From a virus, in IMG/VR virus record IMGVR_UViG_3300042988_001309, positions 30,094 through 94,093 of that record: a stretch of DNA of 64,000 bases, one strand, 5' to 3'. Within the stretch, counting starts at the first letter, position 1. The number at the start of each line of letters is the position of its first letter. The translations under genes and the position numbers were made by a program. This document shows, piece after piece, positions 21,794 to 39,777 of this stretch. Below the pieces are notes generated by a model, which was given only the letters and a program-made list of their open reading frames with translations, did not search any database and was not told the DNA's origin.

Positions 21794-21877
21794 GACGCGC
21801 AACAGGCCGACTCCGAGAGGTGCGCGCTCCGGGTCGGCCTGTTACTGGGCGGCCCCGGGGGGACGGGACACTGCCAG

Positions 21878-21953
21878 TGGCACCGACCGGATTTGAACCG
21901 GCGACCTCCTGGTTATGAGCCAGGCGAGCACATCCGAACTGCTCCACGGTGCG
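21878..21953 (-). tRNA. tRNA-Met(CAT), initiator-like
   Basis: CGCACCG-TG-GAGCAGTTCGGATGTGCTC-G-CCTGG-CTCATAA-CCAGG-AGGTC-GCCGG-TTCAAAT-CCGGT-CGGTGCC-A; 1:72 mismatch. Confidence 0.9.
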
Positions 21954-35092: not shown

Positions 35093-36415
35093 ATGGCAAC
35101 CACCGATGTGGACTCCCGCCTCCGGGAACTCAAGAGCGCCTGGAGCCGTTTGGAGACCGAGAACGATTCCATCCTGGCCACCGCACCCGTCAACGACGGC
35201 GTCCTGACCATCGACAACGACCGTCGCCGTGCGTTCCAGAAGAACGTCGCCGACATGACCGAGATCAAGGGCCTCATCTCGGACCTGGAGGCTCAGTCGG
35301 GCCTCAAGGCCTGGGCCTCGGGCGCTGCTGGCTCGGTCGCCGCGGCTCACGCCGCCGGTGCCGCTGCCCGCCCGCAGTTCAAGTCGCTCGGCGCTGCGTT
35401 CGCCGAGTCCGACGAGTTCAAGTCGTTCATGGCGAACGGCGGCATCAAGGGCGGCTACATGAACAGCCCCTGGGCCGTGCCGGGCATCGACCTCGGCGGC
35501 CAGGCCAAGAGCCTCGGCGGCCTGGAAGTCAAGGATGTCTACACGGCATCGCCGACCGGCGACATCGCCACCGGCTTCGCCCCGATCACCCGCGAGGCCA
35601 TGGTGCCCCGCCCGTTCCGCCGGATGCGGGTCCGTGACCTGTTCCCGGTCCAGAACACCTCCTCGTCCGTCATCGAGTATTTCCGGGTCACCGGCTTCGT
35701 CGGCAACTCGTCGGCCTCGGTGGTGCCCGAGCGTTCCGGTGGCGTGTTCGCCGCTGCGCCGCAGACCTCGCTGAGCTTCACGTCGCATCAGAGCGTCGTG
35801 CGCAACATCCAGCACTGGGAAGCGATCCACCGCACGACCCTCGCCGACACCCCGGCGCTCCAGGGCGTCATCGACAACGAGCTGCTCTACGGCTTGCGCC
35901 TGCGTGAGGACGATCAGATCCTCAACGGCACCGGCACCAGCGAGGACCTGCTCGGCCTCATGGTCGACCCCGACGCCCAGACCTACAGCCGTCCGGGCAC
36001 CCCGGCGGCCAACGAGAACAAGGCCGACGACATCCGCCGTGCCGCCACCAAGGTCATCTTGAGCTACTACGAGCCCACCGGCGTCGTGATGCACCCCAAC
36101 GACTGGGAGGACATCGAGCTGCTCAAGGACTCGACCGGCGCCTACGTCCTGGCCGTCGCGGTGGCCATGGGTGCCGAGCAGAAGCTGTGGCGTCTGCCCA
36201 TCGTCGACACCCCGGCCATGACCGAGGGCCGCTTCCTGGTCGGCTCGTTCGGCCTGGGCGCCAAGCTCTACGACCGCCTGGAGGGCTCGATCCGGGTCGC
36301 CGAACAGCACAGCGACTACTTCCTGCGCAACGCGGTCGTGGTCATGGCCGAGGAGCGGATCGGCATGACGATCCCGCGGCCCGAGGCCTTCGTCAAGGGC
36401 ACCTTCGGCGCCTGA
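35093..36415 (+). CDS. major capsid protein (HK97 fold, with N-terminal delta domain)
   Basis: AAGGAG RBS; RVRDLF, EDDQILNGTG, VVMHPNDW, LWRLPIV, FLRNAVVVMAEER...RPEAFVKG. Confidence 0.95.
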   Translation: MATTDVDSRLRELKSAWSRLETENDSILATAPVNDGVLTIDNDRRRAFQKNVADMTEIKGLISDLEAQSGLKAWASGAAGSVAAAHAAGAAARPQFKSLGAAFAESDEFKSFMANGGIKGGYMNSPWAVPGIDLGGQAKSLGGLEVKDVYTASPTGDIATGFAPITREAMVPRPFRRMRVRDLFPVQNTSSSVIEYFRVTGFVGNSSASVVPERSGGVFAAAPQTSLSFTSHQSVVRNIQHWEAIHRTTLADTPALQGVIDNELLYGLRLREDDQILNGTGTSEDLLGLMVDPDAQTYSRPGTPAANENKADDIRRAATKVILSYYEPTGVVMHPNDWEDIELLKDSTGAYVLAVAVAMGAEQKLWRLPIVDTPAMTEGRFLVGSFGLGAKLYDRLEGSIRVAEQHSDYFLRNAVVVMAEERIGMTIPRPEAFVKGTFGA

Positions 36416-36525: not shown

Positions 36526-37041
36526 ATGGTCTACGAGCCTGCGCAGTTCCCCAAGGTCGCCGACACCGCCGCCCGCAAGCTCGGGCTCATCCGTGACTCG
36601 GTCGCCTGGGACGAGGCCATCTCCGGCGCCCTGTGGCGCCTGACGGCCGACTACATCCGAGGGGCGCTCACCTCCAACGCCCGCGTCCACCTCTCGGCCC
36701 GCGCTGGCGCCATCGAGGGGCTCCGGGACTGGCTGGGGCGCGACGGCCGTCATGTCCACACCAGCCTCGACGAGCTGCTCCCCGACGGCCAGCACACCCG
36801 TGGCGATCTGCTCGCCGCCACGCCGTGCGACCCGCTCGACGAGGCGCTGGCCCGAGAACTGGTCGAACAGCTCGGGCTCAACCGCCACGGGCGCATCGCT
36901 CTGGCCCGAGCGTGCGGCTGGGGTAACACCGAGATCGCCCAGGCGCTGGGGGTCACCCAGGCCCGCATCAGTCAGATCAACACCAAGGTCGCCGATCGCC
37001 TCCGCAAGCCGCCATCAGATGGTCTGGTCAAGTCCGCATGA
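36526..37041 (+). CDS. sigma-factor-like / region-4 HTH regulator
   Basis: GAIEGLR, then SLDELL, then GWGNTEIAQALGVTQARISQI (FliA/SigF-like layout). Confidence 0.6.
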   Translation: MVYEPAQFPKVADTAARKLGLIRDSVAWDEAISGALWRLTADYIRGALTSNARVHLSARAGAIEGLRDWLGRDGRHVHTSLDELLPDGQHTRGDLLAATPCDPLDEALARELVEQLGLNRHGRIALARACGWGNTEIAQALGVTQARISQINTKVADRLRKPPSDGLVKSA

Positions 37042-37057
37042 GCCGTAGGCTGCCGTC

Positions 37058-37276
37058 ATGAGCGACACCCCGAGCACCGTGCGCCAGCGCTTCATGGAAC
37101 AGCGCGAGGCGGCCACCAGCGCCCGCGACTGGGTCGACCGACTCTCGACCGACTTCGGGATCACCGTGCGCGTGGCCCAGGTGGCCGGGCAGTTCACCGG
37201 GGACGTGGCCGTGGACCCTGCGTGGCTCAACGACCAGCTCACCGAGCTGGCTGCGTTGCGAGCAACGACGCCCTGA
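37058..37276 (+). CDS. hypothetical protein
   Basis: leaderless -10 TAGGCT at 37046. Confidence 0.6.
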   Translation: MSDTPSTVRQRFMEQREAATSARDWVDRLSTDFGITVRVAQVAGQFTGDVAVDPAWLNDQLTELAALRATTP

Positions 37277-37281
37277 GAGAA

Positions 37282-37325
37282 TCTGGTAAATCAGGCTTGA
37301 CGTGATTGGTCAGGCCGGTTAGGTT
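37282..37325 (+). promoter_or_regulatory. operator-overlapped promoter of the ncRNA-Ro60 operon
   Basis: TCTGGTAAAT-cagg-CTTGACG; -35 TTGACG 37297, 17 nt, -10 TAGGTT 37320; predicted TSS ~37332 matches the RNA1 5' end. Confidence 0.7.
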
Positions 37326-37332
37326 GTCACCC

Positions 37333-37409
37333 GTCCCACTGGTGTGAAACCGCCGGATACTTCCATTTGATCAGGACCCCCTCCGGTGGTGCCCGGTTCT
37401 CAGTGAGAC
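37333..37409 (+). ncRNA. Y-RNA-like element 1
   Basis: terminal stem GTCCCACTG/CAGTGAGAC, GGTGTG..GGTTCT internal motif, inner stem ACCGCCGGA/TCCGGTGGT, TACTTC motif. Confidence 0.65.
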
Positions 37410-37428
37410 CACAACACCAACTGAATAC

Positions 37429-37513
37429 GACCTCGCCGGTGCGAGGGTGCGGGTTACTTCTGACTGTGAATCAGATCCAACAAACGCCCGTGCCGCCGGT
37501 TCTCGGCGAGGTC
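37429..37513 (+). ncRNA. Y-RNA-like element 2 carrying a His(GTG)-type anticodon stem-loop
   Basis: GACCTCGCCG/CGGCGAGGTC stem; GGTGCG..GGTTCT; TCTGA-CTGTGAA-TCAGA at 37459-37475. Confidence 0.7.
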
Positions 37514-37522
37514 CTGAACGCA

Positions 37523-37631
37523 CCCGATGGTGCGCAGTCGCGAGCTACGTCGATGGTTCAAATCCACCCGGCCCTGTAGGGCTGTAGCTCAACTGGTAGA
37601 GCATCGCTCGCGGCGCCAGGTTCTCATCGGG
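37523..37631 (+). ncRNA. yrlA: YrlA-like Y RNA (circularly permuted T arm, closed acceptor stem, D arm)
   Basis: CCCGATG/CATCGGG stem; GGTTCAAATCC, then CGGCCC-TGTA-GGGCTG, then TAGCTCAACTGGTAGAGCA; upstream of Ro60. Confidence 0.8.
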
Positions 37632-37644
37632 CCCTTCGACATCG

Positions 37645-37786
37645 GCTGGCGCCGGTGCGTAGTCGCGGGATACTTCGCCTTTCAAGCGGGTGGTCGTGGG
37701 TTCGACTCCCACTCCCGGGTTCACCCCCGGGGTAGCTCAGTGGCCAGAGCACCTTCATCCCGTGGCGCCCAGTTCTCGGCGCCAGC
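37645..37786 (+). ncRNA. Y-RNA-like element 4 containing a complete permuted tRNA-Glu(TTC)-like domain
   Basis: GCTGGCGCCG/CGGCGCCAGC stem; TTCGC-CTTTCAA-GCGGG, TGGTC, GTGGG-TTCGACT-CCCAC, closed acceptor stem, TAGCTCAGTGGCCAGAGCA. Confidence 0.8.
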
Positions 37787-37824
37787 TTCGTCGATCGGGC
37801 CCCTCAACCAGAGAGGAGCCCGTC

Positions 37825-39387
37825 ATGGGCAAGTTTGCCAACCAGTCCTTTGCCACCCCCAACGCCTTGAGGGTGGTCGGCCCGACCAACACCGTGGCCC
37901 CCACCTCGACCTACGAAGGTGGCGATGGCTACACCCTCGACGCTCGCACCGAGCTGTTCACCTTGGCCACCACCGACTTCGGTGGCGAGGACACCTTCTA
38001 CCAGTCCGGCAACGACCGCCTCGATCGCCTGGCGCGCCTCGTCGCCACCTTGGTCCGCGGCGGCGACACCGACTGGCTGGCCGGGTTCGCCCGCTGGCTG
38101 CGCGACGGCGCCAACATGCGCTCGGCCGCCGTGGCTGTGGCCTGTGAGTACGTCGCCGCCGGTGGCCCCAACGGCCGGGCCGTCATCGACTCGGTGTGTG
38201 TGCGCGCCGACGAGCCCGCCGAGGTGCTCGGCTACTGGCTGGCCCGCAAGGCTCGCAACATCCCCAAGCCGGTCAAGCGCGGTGTCGCCGACGCCGCCGC
38301 TCGGCTCTACACGCCCCGGAACCTCGCCAAGTACGACGGTGGCCGCTCCCCGCTGCGCTTCGGTGACGTGATCGAGCTGACCCACGCCAAGCCGGTCAAG
38401 TCCGGCCAGAGCACGCTGTTCCGCCACGCCATCGACCGCCGCCACGGCCGCCCCACCCAGCTCCGCCCCGGCGAGCTGTTCGACGAGACGCTGGAGTCGC
38501 TCTACGGCCTGGAGACGCTGCCCCCCGAGGTGCGCGTGGCCAATCTGGCCGCCGCCACGGCCCATCCCCTCATGACCTGGGAGCGCCTCGCCGGATGGCT
38601 GCCCGGCGGGATGAACGCCGCCGCCTGGGAGGCCCTCATCGACGCCGACCGGCTCGGCTACATGGCCCTGCTGCGCAACCTCAACAACTTCGACCGTGCT
38701 GGCATCTCCAAGGCGCACATCGCCAAGGTGAACGCCCGCCTGGCCGATCCCATCGAGGTCGCCGCCAGTCGCCAGCTCCCGTTCCGGTTCTACACCGCCT
38801 ACCGCACGGTGGGCTCGCTGACCTACGCCTCGGCGCTGGAGCAGGCCATGGAGTACGCCACCAGCAACGTCCCGACCCTGTCGGGGCGCACCTTGGTCGC
38901 GGTCGACACCTCGGGCTCGATGCAGTCGACGCCCTCGGGCAAGTCCACGGTCCTCATGTCCGAGATCGCCGCGGTGTTCGCCGGTGCCCTGGCCCAGCGG
39001 AGCGACGTGGACCTCATCCACTTCGCCACCGGCTCCGAGCGCATCACCCCGGCCCGGAGCGTGCTGCGCACGGTCGAGTTGATCCGCTCCCGGATCGGCT
39101 CGGTCGGCGGTGGCACCAACACCTGGCCCGCCATCGAGCGCCACTTCACCCCAGGCCGTCATGACCGGGTGATCGTGCTCACCGACATGCAGTCTCGGCC
39201 GAGCACTGCGCCGGTGCCCGCCGAGGTGCCGGTCTACGTGTGGGACCTGCGCGGCTACGGGTCGAGCGACATCGACCTCGGTCGGGGCCGGTTCCTGCTG
39301 GCGGGGTTCAGCGACAAGGCGTTCTCCCTCATCGGGACGCTGGAGCGCGGCCGCAACGCCGACTGGCCCTGGATCGTGGCGGCATGA
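37825..39387 (+). CDS. rsr: Ro60/Rsr TROVE-domain RNA-binding protein with vWA domain
   Basis: AGAGGAG RBS; TYEGG.GY, EDTFY, RADEP, MTWE, LGYMALLRNL, SRQLPFRF, VAVDTSGSM (MIDAS), IVLTDMQ. Confidence 0.93.
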   Translation: MGKFANQSFATPNALRVVGPTNTVAPTSTYEGGDGYTLDARTELFTLATTDFGGEDTFYQSGNDRLDRLARLVATLVRGGDTDWLAGFARWLRDGANMRSAAVAVACEYVAAGGPNGRAVIDSVCVRADEPAEVLGYWLARKARNIPKPVKRGVADAAARLYTPRNLAKYDGGRSPLRFGDVIELTHAKPVKSGQSTLFRHAIDRRHGRPTQLRPGELFDETLESLYGLETLPPEVRVANLAAATAHPLMTWERLAGWLPGGMNAAAWEALIDADRLGYMALLRNLNNFDRAGISKAHIAKVNARLADPIEVAASRQLPFRFYTAYRTVGSLTYASALEQAMEYATSNVPTLSGRTLVAVDTSGSMQSTPSGKSTVLMSEIAAVFAGALAQRSDVDLIHFATGSERITPARSVLRTVELIRSRIGSVGGGTNTWPAIERHFTPGRHDRVIVLTDMQSRPSTAPVPAEVPVYVWDLRGYGSSDIDLGRGRFLLAGFSDKAFSLIGTLERGRNADWPWIVAA

Positions 39388-39548
39388 CCCGGTTCAAGGT
39401 CACCTTGGTCTCCATCGTCGACATCCCCGACTCCGACCCCGAGGACGAGGTGGCTGCGTTCGTCTTTGCGGGCGCGGCGGTGCTGCGCGGCGAGGGCGAC
39501 AACCAGAGCCTTGAGGTCGAGCGGCTCCAAGATGGTCAGCCCGAGTGA
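39384..39548 (+). CDS. small hypothetical protein
   Basis: ATGA-coupled to Ro60. Confidence 0.5.
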   Translation: MTRFKVTLVSIVDIPDSDPEDEVAAFVFAGAAVLRGEGDNQSLEVERLQDGQPE

Positions 39549-39777
39549 CGCCAAGGCGCGACGGCGGGTGTCGGTCGACAAGGACGGCCGTCATCTGCTC
39601 GGCGTGCTGGTGTACGCCCCGCCGCTCGATGGCCAGCCGCACCGCGATGGCTCCAAGCGTTCCGGGGTCCACTGTCGGGTCGAGCTGAGCCCCGGGGTCT
39701 ACCTGTCGGTACGCCCCGAGCGCATCACCTTCCTCGATCCCGACCCCGACGAGTCATCAGGCCAACTGGTAATCTGA
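39532..39777 (+). CDS. small hypothetical protein
   Basis: MVSPSDAK..., followed by a terminator. Confidence 0.5.
   Translation: MVSPSDAKARRRVSVDKDGRHLLGVLVYAPPLDGQPHRDGSKRSGVHCRVELSPGVYLSVRPERITFLDPDPDESSGQLVI

What the first reader, a model, noticed from the sequence alone, without database searches (positions are those of the whole stretch)
37333..37786. Array of four paralogous Y-RNA-like scaffolds directly upstream of a phage Ro60
Seen: four consecutive hairpin RNAs (37333-37409, 37429-37513, 37523-37631, 37645-37786). Their terminal stems differ in sequence but all pair, and they share internal motifs: 5' GGTG(C/T)G, 3' C(G/A)GTTCTC or CAGGTTCTC, a second 8-10 bp stem, and TAC(T/G)TC just before a variable insert. 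They sit behind a good promoter and 38 nt before the Ro60 start. Established: bacterial Ro60 (Rsr) binds Y RNAs, and YrlA mimics tRNA with permuted T/D arms. Inference: one Ro60 loaded with four interchangeable RNA adaptors, a modular RNP repertoire in a phage.
Basis: partly seen in the sequence, partly recalled or inferred. Interest (0 to 1): 0.85.

Follow-up and report, generated by a model that had tools for sequence, protein, structure and literature searches.

The report
Four Y RNAs before phage Ro60
An actinobacterial phage carries four small structured RNA genes in a row just ahead of its Ro60 RNA-binding protein gene. They are genuine Y RNAs, but such rows of two to eight are the normal arrangement in related phages and bacteria, so the case is real but ordinary.

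Summary
Window 37333-37786 holds four tandem, same-strand structured RNAs between a TTGACG-17-TAGGTT promoter and the Ro60 (TROVE+vWA) gene, which starts at 37825.

All four share one module:
- an outer stem
- a conserved internal loop (5' GGUGYG, 3' GUUCUC)
- an 8-bp inner stem
- a UACUUC (YUAY) motif
- a variable apical part

Copies 3 and 4 carry the permuted T-arm, closed acceptor-like stem and D-arm domain of YrlA. Rfam scores them 42 and 36 bits, both below the gathering score of 69. Copies 1 and 2 are short, YrlB-like.

A covariance model built only from 81 homologues on other viral contigs finds exactly these four sites in the 64-kb window (39-88 bits) and nothing else. Both stems covary: 92% of cells are paired and 16 of 17 pairs show compensatory changes.

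Four copies is not unusual. I counted 1-8 modules per locus in 78 related viral loci (77 with two or more) and 0-6 in 44 actinomycete genome loci. All 371 hits lie on the Ro60 strand.

Y RNAs next to phage Ro60 are published (Chen 2014; Thermus phage phiLo 2025). This scan has also reported similar arrays on other DNA. Verdict: a new member of a known kind. The idea that the four RNAs act as interchangeable adaptors is plausible but untested.

The parts
37297..37325 (+). Promoter-like site: -35 TTGACG (37297-37302), 17-nt spacer, -10 TAGGTT (37320-37325). The predicted transcription start is about 37332-37333, the first base of Y RNA 1.
   Evidence: Read directly. The generic scan did not call it. 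Function is inferred.
37333..37409 (+). Y RNA 1, short class (77 nt). Outer stem GUC.CACUG/CAGUG.GAC, 5' GGUGUGAAA, inner stem CCGCCGG/CCGGUGG, AUACUUC, small apical part, 3' GCCCGGUUCUC.
   Evidence: R1 scores it 68.3 bits. The independent model R2 scores it 49.5 bits, E 3.5e-10. It has no Rfam hit.
37429..37513 (+). Y RNA 2, short class (85 nt), with a 10-11 bp outer stem. The apical hairpin at 37459-37475 has a 5-bp stem (UCUGA/UCAGA) and a 7-nt loop CUGUGAA, which is anticodon-loop-like.
   Evidence: z -4.05. R2 scores it 52.5 bits, E 6.5e-11.
37523..37631 (+). Y RNA 3, tRNA-like YrlA type without a V arm (109 nt). T arm 37552-37568, closed acceptor-like stem 37569-37584 (6 bp plus UGUA loop), UA, D arm 37587-37602.
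   Evidence: Rfam YrlA RF02553 scores it 42.3 bits, E 5.8e-8, full model length but below the gathering score of 69. R2 scores it 39 bits, E 1.3e-7. Fold.
37645..37786 (+). Y RNA 4, long YrlA type (142 nt). V arm 37674-37690 (UUCGC-CUUUCAA-GCGGG), UGGUC, T arm 37696-37712, 7-bp closed acceptor-like stem 37713-37732 (loop UUCACC), UA, D arm 37735-37750.
   Evidence: Rfam YrlA scores it 36.3 bits, E 3.1e-6, and the tRNA model scores 37664-37720 at 27.7 bits. R2 scores it 88 bits, E 1.3e-19. Fold z is -4.16. The permuted domain is called tRNA-Glu(ttc) by ARAGORN, but that test proved non-specific.
37810..37818 (+). Shine-Dalgarno-like AGAGAGGAG, ending 6 nt before the Ro60 ATG.
   Evidence: Read directly.
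37825..39387 (+). Phage Ro60 / Rsr homologue (520 aa), with a TROVE ring and a vWA domain carrying DxSxS (D361, S363, S365).
   Evidence: Pfam TROVE 5.5e-18. PHROG 850 'RNA-binding protein' 1.9e-45. PDB 9KOP and 9L5Y (phiLo Ro60) 1.6e-28. It is 39-49% identical to actinophage and actinomycete Ro60.

Best explanation
The 454-nt stretch encodes four Y RNAs of the actinobacterial YrlA/YrlB kind. They are most likely transcribed as one precursor, together with the phage Ro60 gene, from the promoter at 37297-37325, and then cut into discrete RNAs of about 77, 85, 109 and 142 nt by host RNases. Each RNA has the same Ro60-docking module: terminal stem, conserved internal loop (5' GGUGYGNAG, 3' GCCNNGUUCUC) and an 8-bp stem ending in YUACUUC. 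Each also has a different apical effector module: two short hairpin tops, one minimal tRNA elbow (T, closed acceptor, D), and one near-complete permuted tRNA with an extra anticodon-arm-like V hairpin. The phage Ro60 ring binds the shared module, and the apical parts recruit different partners. By analogy with published systems, the partners would be PNPase and tRNA-binding enzymes. One protein would thus form several RNPs that redirect host RNA decay or tRNA metabolism during infection. Shown here: the shared architecture, its conservation and covariation, and its strict linkage and co-orientation with Ro60. Inferred: transcription, processing, Ro60 binding, the partners and the benefit to the phage.
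For: Rfam YrlA aligns full-length to copies 3 and 4, at E 5.8e-8 and 3.1e-6. Model R2, built only from 81 modules of 71 other viral contigs, detects all four copies and nothing else in the window or the whole phage record. The two stems covary: 91.9% of cells are paired against 65.8% in shuffles and 35-52% in slid controls, and 16 of 17 pairs have compensatory changes, across 81 sequences. The 25-sequence set, including 13 modules from annotated actinophages not used in training, gives the same picture. All 253 hits in 80 viral loci and all 118 hits in 44 actinomycete loci lie on the Ro60 strand, and nearly all lie within 1.5 kb upstream. The promoter ends 7 nt before copy 1, as in L003 and L005. 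No terminator-like site was found in 37000-39700, which includes the gap between copy 4 and the Ro60 start. Published precedent supports each step. M. smegmatis YrlA and YrlB lie upstream of rsr, are processed from one precursor and are bound by Rsr (PMC4201824). Thermus phage phiLo Ro60 binds two upstream Yrl RNAs and forms a complex with host PNPase (PMC12135203).
Against: There are no expression, processing or binding data for this phage. Rfam's gathering score for YrlA is not reached by any copy. The published GNCGAA motif is present only in variant form: GUGCGCAG, GUGCGUAG, GUGCGAGG and GUGUGAAA. Copy 1 folds no better than 13 of 200 shuffles. The covariation counts were made on alignments fitted to the model, which biases them towards the structure. 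No PNPase or RtcB gene was looked for in the host, which is unknown, and RtcB is absent from the phage.
Confidence: 0.82

Rival explanations
1. The four hairpins act in cis rather than as free RNAs. They would form a structured 5' leader of the Ro60 mRNA, which Ro60 binds to autoregulate its own translation or stability.
For: The array lies between the promoter and the Ro60 start. Only 38 nt separate it from the ATG, and no terminator-like site was found. Almost all homologous arrays are directly upstream of Ro60 on the same strand.
Against: In some relatives the modules lie downstream of Ro60: Atuin L007 4050-4332, L036 4365-4795 and L066 5391-5698. In L005 a terminator-like hairpin separates the array from Ro60. 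The M. smegmatis homologues are processed into stable Rsr-bound RNAs (PMC4201824). The tRNA-like tops have no obvious role in a leader. The two roles are not mutually exclusive.
Confidence: 0.1
2. Only the two tRNA-like copies (3 and 4) are functional Y RNAs. Copies 1 and 2 are decaying duplicates or incidental hairpins.
For: Copies 1 and 2 have no Rfam hit. Copy 1 has a weak fold z-score of -1.6 and a mismatch in its outer stem.
Against: The independent model R2 scores them at 49.5 and 52.5 bits, E about 1e-10, higher than copy 3. A short class of 72-90 nt with the same module recurs in most viral and bacterial arrays, like M. smegmatis and Salmonella YrlB (PMC4201824).
Confidence: 0.06
3. 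The region is a remnant of a tRNA gene cluster, made of pseudo-tRNAs with no link to Ro60.
For: Other actinophages place Ro60 inside large tRNA clusters. The tRNA model scores 27.7 bits on part of copy 4.
Against: ARAGORN finds no tRNA there at default settings. The T and D arms are in permuted order. The shared non-tRNA module is conserved and covaries across more than 100 loci.
Confidence: 0.02

Closest known systems
Mycobacterium smegmatis YrlA and YrlB with Rsr (Chen et al. 2014, PMC4201824)
   Same: It has an actinobacterial-type Ro60. Several Y RNAs lie directly upstream on the same strand and come from one precursor. One is about 147 nt with V, T, 7-bp acceptor-like and D arms, and another is a shorter hairpin type. 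The YUAY motif precedes the V region.
   Different: Here there are four RNAs rather than two, and they are carried by a phage. The 5' motif is GGUGYGNAG rather than a strict GNCGAA. Nothing has been shown experimentally.
Thermus phage phiLo Ro60 with Yrl1 and Yrl2 (NAR 2025, PMC12135203; PDB 9KOP, 9L5Y)
   Same: It is a phage-encoded Ro60, and the best solved-structure match of the window protein (1.6e-28). It has more than one Y-like RNA upstream, each with a stem, bulge and stem architecture.
   Different: It comes from a different phage lineage and host. It has two RNAs, identified through the CGAA motif. In the passages I read no tRNA-like domain is mentioned for those RNAs. Binding to Ro60 and complex formation with PNPase were demonstrated there but not here.
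Rfam RF02553 YrlA
   Same: Copies 3 and 4 align over the whole 114-position model, with T arm, closed acceptor stem and D arm in YrlA order.
   Different: Their scores of 42.3 and 36.3 bits are below the gathering score of 69. The seven YrlA matches in the seven relative loci searched with Rfam (L003, L005-L009; none in L004) are also below it, at 31.7-47 bits. Copies 1 and 2 are not matched at all.
Deinococcus radiodurans Yrn1 and Yrn2, and metazoan Y RNAs
   Same: They have a terminal stem that carries the Ro60 site and an internal effector module. Each genome has two to four paralogues. In D. radiodurans, small RNAs lie upstream of rsr.
   Different: The Ro-binding helix sequence is different, and the tRNA-like parts are oriented differently (PMC4201824).

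Membership tests
YrlA-type bacterial/phage Y RNA (Chen 2014; Rfam RF02553) | Encoded within about 4 kb of a Ro60/TROVE gene on the same strand | tested here: met
   All four lie 38-492 nt upstream of the Ro60 ATG on the + strand.
YrlA-type bacterial/phage Y RNA (Chen 2014; Rfam RF02553) | Score at or above the Rfam gathering threshold (69 bits) | tested here: not met
   Copy 3 scores 42.3 bits and copy 4 scores 36.3 bits. Copies 1 and 2 have no hit. All actinophage relatives tested are also below threshold, so the Rfam model under-covers this clade.
YrlA-type bacterial/phage Y RNA (Chen 2014; Rfam RF02553) | tRNA-like domain in permuted order: T arm, closed acceptor-like stem, UA, D arm | tested here: met
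   Met for copies 3 and 4. Not met for copies 1 and 2, which are YrlB-like.
YrlA-type bacterial/phage Y RNA (Chen 2014; Rfam RF02553) | 5' GNCGAA(N0-1)G motif, the putative Ro60 contact strand | tested here: inconclusive
   The window copies have GUGCGCAG, GUGCGUAG, GUGCGAGG and GUGUGAAA. Relatives often have GUGCGAAGG. This is a related motif at the same position, not a strict match.
YrlA-type bacterial/phage Y RNA (Chen 2014; Rfam RF02553) | Conserved YUAY at the start of the V region | tested here: met
   The motifs are AUAC, UUAC, CUAC and AUAC, each followed by UUC or GUC.
Y RNA in the functional sense | Stable discrete RNA bound by Ro60 | not testable with these tools
   This needs RNA-seq or Northern blots plus Ro60 pull-down or EMSA.
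Y RNA in the functional sense | 5' and 3' ends pair into a stem with a conserved Ro60 site, supported by covariation | tested here: met
   In A4, 91.9% of cells are paired and 16 of 17 pairs are compensatory. A2 agrees. Caveat: these are model-fitted alignments.
Ro60 / Rsr protein | TROVE HEAT-repeat ring plus a vWA domain with a MIDAS DxSxS motif | tested here: met
   TROVE scores 65.8 bits, above the cut-off of 23. VWA_2 scores 25.4 bits, just under the cut-off of 27. D361, S363 and S365 are invariant in 8 homologues. PDB phiLo Ro60 matches at 1.6e-28 over residues 241-509. PHROG 850 covers residues 19-515.

The most novel reading that the evidence does not exclude
The arrays may be a panel of tRNA-part mimics rather than redundant scaffolds. 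A hairpin that starts exactly at the conserved UUC, with a 5-bp stem and a 7-nt loop of pattern Y-U-NNN-R-A (an anticodon-arm look-alike), occurs in 81 of 347 distinct modules, with 41 different loops. In this window they are CUGUGAA (His-like) on a short RNA and CUUUCAA (Glu-like) on the long one. If these loops are under selection, one Ro60 could present different anticodon arms. They might act as decoys or sensors for host anticodon nucleases or tRNA-modifying enzymes, or guide Ro60 and PNPase to particular damaged tRNAs. That would make the Y-RNA array a phage counter-defence. Alternatively the hairpin is only a relic of the first tRNA in the proposed dimeric-tRNA origin of YrlA.
Probability: 0.15. 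Interest if true: 0.7.

Novelty: new member of a known kind. Interest (0 to 1): 0.33.

Why it matters
The case adds one well-delimited phage Ro60 and Y RNA locus that standard annotation would miss, because Rfam's gathering threshold is not reached.

The survey done to test it gives broader points:
- In actinophages and actinomycetes the Ro60 gene is almost always preceded by a row of two or more Y RNAs, up to eight.
- These Y RNAs share one docking module.
- They fall into recurring short, middle and long classes.
- I found no paper that states this systematically. Chen 2014 kept only the best hit per genome. I could not read the 2018-2020 reviews.

It also gives a usable covariance model for the clade and flags likely mis-annotated 'tRNAs' in deposited phage genomes. 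By itself the window's array would not surprise a specialist.

Tried and rejected
- The Rfam search at gathering thresholds found only tRNA-Met in the window. The YrlA signal appears only in E-value mode.
- blastn of the array against 50,697 phage records found no match, so no close relative is available and nucleotide-level comparison was impossible.
- The generic sigma-70 promoter and terminator scan found nothing. I rejected this as evidence against a promoter because its -10 rule does not fit actinobacterial TANNNT boxes.
- A simple regex plus stem scan found the four copies, and also three weak chance hits elsewhere in the window. I replaced it with covariance models.
- nhmmer half-site profiles were too insensitive, finding only 2 of the 4 window copies, and I dropped them.
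- The ARAGORN test for a complete circularly permuted tRNA looked positive: copy 4 gave tRNA-Glu(ttc), and 42 of 50 long modules gave a tRNA call. It failed its control, because shuffling the anticodon and variable region still gave 37-41 of 50 calls. It is not evidence for an anticodon arm. Only the direct stem and loop statistics are used.
- One cmsearch call was wasted on an impossible E-value cut-off.
- The reviews by Sim and Wolin (2018), Boccitto and Wolin (2019) and Sim et al. (2020) are not held, and the Chen 2014 supplementary tables are not held. I therefore cannot exclude that the array sizes are tabulated there.

Full report
**What is there**

The window is bases 30094-94093 of a 94-kb IMG/VR viral record with about 69% G+C, estimated 94% complete. 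A phage capsid gene lies at 35093-36415 (Pfam Phage_capsid, 1.7e-41). Two small ORFs follow, one of them weakly sigma-70 region-4-like. After these the sequence reads as follows:
- TTGACG at 37297-37302, a 17-nt spacer, then TAGGTT at 37320-37325.
- Seven nucleotides later, four consecutive structured elements at 37333-37409, 37429-37513, 37523-37631 and 37645-37786.
- A 38-nt spacer that contains AGAGAGGAG.
- The ATG at 37825 of a 520-aa ORF.

**The downstream gene**

The ORF is a Ro60/Rsr homologue. The evidence is:
- Pfam TROVE at 5.5e-18, plus a vWA domain just under threshold.
- PHROG 850 'RNA-binding protein' at 1.9e-45 over residues 19-515.
- The solved Thermus phage phiLo Ro60 (9KOP, 9L5Y) as best structure match, at 1.6e-28.
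- About 39% identity to 'Ro-like RNA binding protein' of Streptomyces, Arthrobacter and Gordonia phages.
- A MIDAS-type D361-x-S363-x-S365 that is invariant among eight homologues.

**Anatomy of the four RNAs**

Each folds into the same architecture:
- An outer stem of 7-11 bp formed by the two ends.
- A large asymmetric internal loop with conserved sequence on both strands (5' GGUG(C/U)G-N-A, 3' GCC-N-(G/A)GUUCU).
- An 8-bp inner stem.
- The motif (A/U/C)UAC(U/G)UC.
- A variable apical part.

Fold z-scores are -1.6, -4.05, -2.5 and -4.2.

Copies 3 and 4 contain, in this order, a T arm (GGUUCAAAUCC and GGGUUCGACUCCC), a closed acceptor-like hairpin (6 bp and 7 bp), UA, and a D arm (GCUCAACUGGUAGAGC and GCUCAGUGGCCAGAGC). 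This is the circularly permuted tRNA-like domain that defines YrlA (PMC4201824; structure in 10.1101/312249). Rfam's YrlA model aligns end to end with both, at 42.3 bits (E 5.8e-8) and 36.3 bits (E 3.1e-6). Both scores are below the gathering score of 69, which is why the default search saw nothing.

Copy 4 also has a hairpin between the YUAC motif and the T arm, in the 'V' position. Copies 1 and 2 lack T and D arms and resemble the short second Y RNAs (YrlB, Yrn2) described in the three characterised bacteria.

**Is it more than chance?**

No close nucleotide relative exists, so I collected Ro60 loci by protein similarity.

A first covariance model, R1, was built from the four window copies plus eight look-alikes from three viral contigs. 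It hit only the four copies in the window (47-71 bits); the next best hit scored 16 bits at E 0.076. It also found three or four unannotated modules next to Ro60 in each of Streptomyces phages Alone3 and Quantum, Arthrobacter phage Atuin and Gordonia phage VanLee.

In 80 further viral Ro60 loci, R1 found 253 modules, all on the Ro60 strand and nearly all within 1.5 kb upstream.

I then built R2 from 81 of those modules, with no window sequence in it. R2 recovers exactly the four window elements and nothing else up to E=10 in 64 kb, or in the whole 94-kb record:

| Copy | R2 score (bits) |
|---|---|
| Copy 4 | 88 |
| Copy 2 | 52.5 |
| Copy 1 | 49.5 |
| Copy 3 | 39 |

Covariation supports both stems. 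On 81 sequences, 91.9% of cells pair, against 65.8% in shuffles and 35-52% when partners are slid. Sixteen of 17 pairs show changes on both sides. The 25-sequence set gives the same picture. These alignments were fitted to the model, which favours the structure, but the margin is large and the outer stems plainly differ in sequence while always pairing.

**How unusual is four?**

Four is not unusual. Modules per locus were:

| Modules per locus | 78 viral loci with enough upstream DNA (my tally) | 44 actinomycete genome loci (Streptomyces, Micromonospora, Nocardia, Rhodococcus, Planobispora and others) |
|---|---|---|
| 0 | - | 1 |
| 1 | 1 | 3 |
| 2 | 29 | 16 |
| 3 | 21 | 15 |
| 4 | 10 | 8 |
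| 5 | 13 | - |
| 6 | 3 | 1 |
| 8 | 1 | - |

The viral tally includes a few duplicate contigs.

Lengths fall into recurring classes of about 72-90, 100-125 and 135-156 nt. The window's 77/85/109/142 layout (77, 83, 113 and 140 nt as model hits) resembles Planobispora's 80/143/113/140. The recurring classes argue for specialised RNAs rather than freely interchangeable ones.

**Transcription**

The promoter-like motif TTGACN, 16-18 nt, YANNNT lies within 60 nt upstream of 16 of 134 array starts, against 0.28% of random windows. In L003, L005 and the window its -10 box ends exactly 7 nt before the first module. No terminator-like site was found in 37000-39700, which includes the gap between copy 4 and the Ro60 start. 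This points to one precursor that also carries the Ro60 message, as shown experimentally for M. smegmatis YrlA and YrlB (PMC4201824). Transcription here is inferred, not shown.

**Mechanism**

The best-supported reading is a phage copy of the actinobacterial rsr and Y RNA module. Ro60 would dock on the conserved internal-loop and stem module, and the apical parts would serve as effector ends. Published work shows three relevant things:
- Y RNA tethers Ro60 to PNPase in D. radiodurans and Salmonella.
- The phage phiLo Ro60 binds two upstream Yrl RNAs and forms a ternary complex with host PNPase (PMC12135203).

Copy 4 has the 7-bp acceptor-like stem that made the M. smegmatis RNA an RNase P substrate. 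The phage itself has no RtcB and only one tRNA, unlike several actinophages where Ro60 sits inside large tRNA clusters.

**A side result on the V hairpin**

Across 347 distinct modules I tested for a 5-bp stem that starts at the first U of the conserved UUC. Such a stem closes a 7-nt loop in 60 modules, against at most 14 for any other loop length. Counting a start one base later as well, 81 modules have the hairpin.

Among the 41 distinct 7-nt loops:
- position 1 is a pyrimidine in 35
- position 2 is U in 34
- position 6 is a purine in 31
- position 7 is A in 33

The regional T content is 22%. This is the geometry and signature of an anticodon arm. In the window it occurs in copy 2 (UCUGA-CUGUGAA-UCAGA) and copy 4 (UUCGC-CUUUCAA-GCGGG).

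The published model calls this region the variable arm and states that YrlA lacks an anticodon loop (PMC4201824; 10.1101/312249).

In copy 4, the tRNA model aligns 37664-37720 as acceptor 5' strand, anticodon arm, 5-nt variable loop, T arm and acceptor 3' strand, with no D arm (27.7 bits). That is what the proposed dimeric-tRNA origin of YrlA predicts for a relic of the first tRNA. Whether the hairpin is a relic or a selected mimic is open.

My ARAGORN permutation test looked supportive but failed its shuffle control, so I do not use it as evidence.

**Comparison and novelty**

Y RNAs beside Ro60 were reported in 254 bacterial species and 22 phages in 2014, with at least two Y RNAs in each characterised species. 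Two Y-like RNAs upstream of a phage Ro60 were characterised biochemically in 2025. Three abundant ncRNAs upstream of an Rsr-like gene were noted in a Listeria phage (PMC12282133). This scan's own notes also record similar handle-sharing RNA arrays next to Ro60-like genes in other phages.

The window is therefore a new member of a known kind. The regularity of the arrays and the anticodon-arm-like hairpin are the only parts I could not find in print, and I could not read the main reviews.

Noticed in passing
window 37459-37475 and 37674-37690; 81 of 347 homologous modules in the fetched loci: The hairpin that starts at the conserved UUC has a 5-bp stem and a 7-nt loop with an anticodon-loop signature (Y-U-NNN-R-A). 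Seven is by far the preferred loop length. The published YrlA model treats this region as a variable arm and says YrlA lacks an anticodon loop.
   Followed up: partly
window 37664-37720: The 5' half of copy 4 can alternatively be read as a D-arm-less tRNA: acceptor 5' strand, UUC anticodon arm, UGGUC, T arm and acceptor 3' strand (Rfam tRNA 27.7 bits, gathering score 29). This competes with the Y-RNA fold and fits the proposed origin of YrlA from a tRNA dimer (10.1101/312249).
   Followed up: partly
L006:1774-1847 (Streptomyces phage Alone3) and L008:1626-1697 (Gordonia phage VanLee): The deposited annotations 'tRNA-Ser(gct)' and 'tRNA-Arg(tct)' overlap Y-RNA signals. The first overlaps model R1 module L006:1768-1915 and scores only 29.5 bits with the tRNA model. 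The second overlaps Rfam YrlA hit L008:1666-1729. They are probably tRNA-like domains of Y RNAs rather than tRNA genes.
   Followed up: partly
window 3390, 21991 and 48662 (+ strand): Three sites share TTGACC, 17-18 nt, TATGGT. This may be a promoter family of this phage that is distinct from the TTGACG...TAGGTT site before the Y RNA array.
   Followed up: no
L051:1435-2426; L120:1530-2401: The largest arrays seen were eight modules upstream of Ro60 in one viral contig and six in a Micromonospora genome.
   Followed up: no
window 21877-21953 (- strand) and the whole 94-kb record: The phage has a single tRNA (Met, CAT) and no RtcB, whereas Ro60 genes of Alone3 and Atuin sit inside clusters of a dozen or more tRNA genes.
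   Followed up: partly
window 36526-37041: A 171-aa ORF between the capsid gene and the array has weak sigma-70 region-4 similarity (Pfam 22.8 bits, below the cut-off of 24.1; PHROG 351 sigma factor 1.4e-4). It may be a phage transcription factor next to the Y RNA promoter.
   Followed up: no
L006:3967-4199: A manA RNA motif hit (47.8 bits, gathering score 55.2) lies between tRNA genes downstream of Ro60 in Streptomyces phage Alone3.
   Followed up: no
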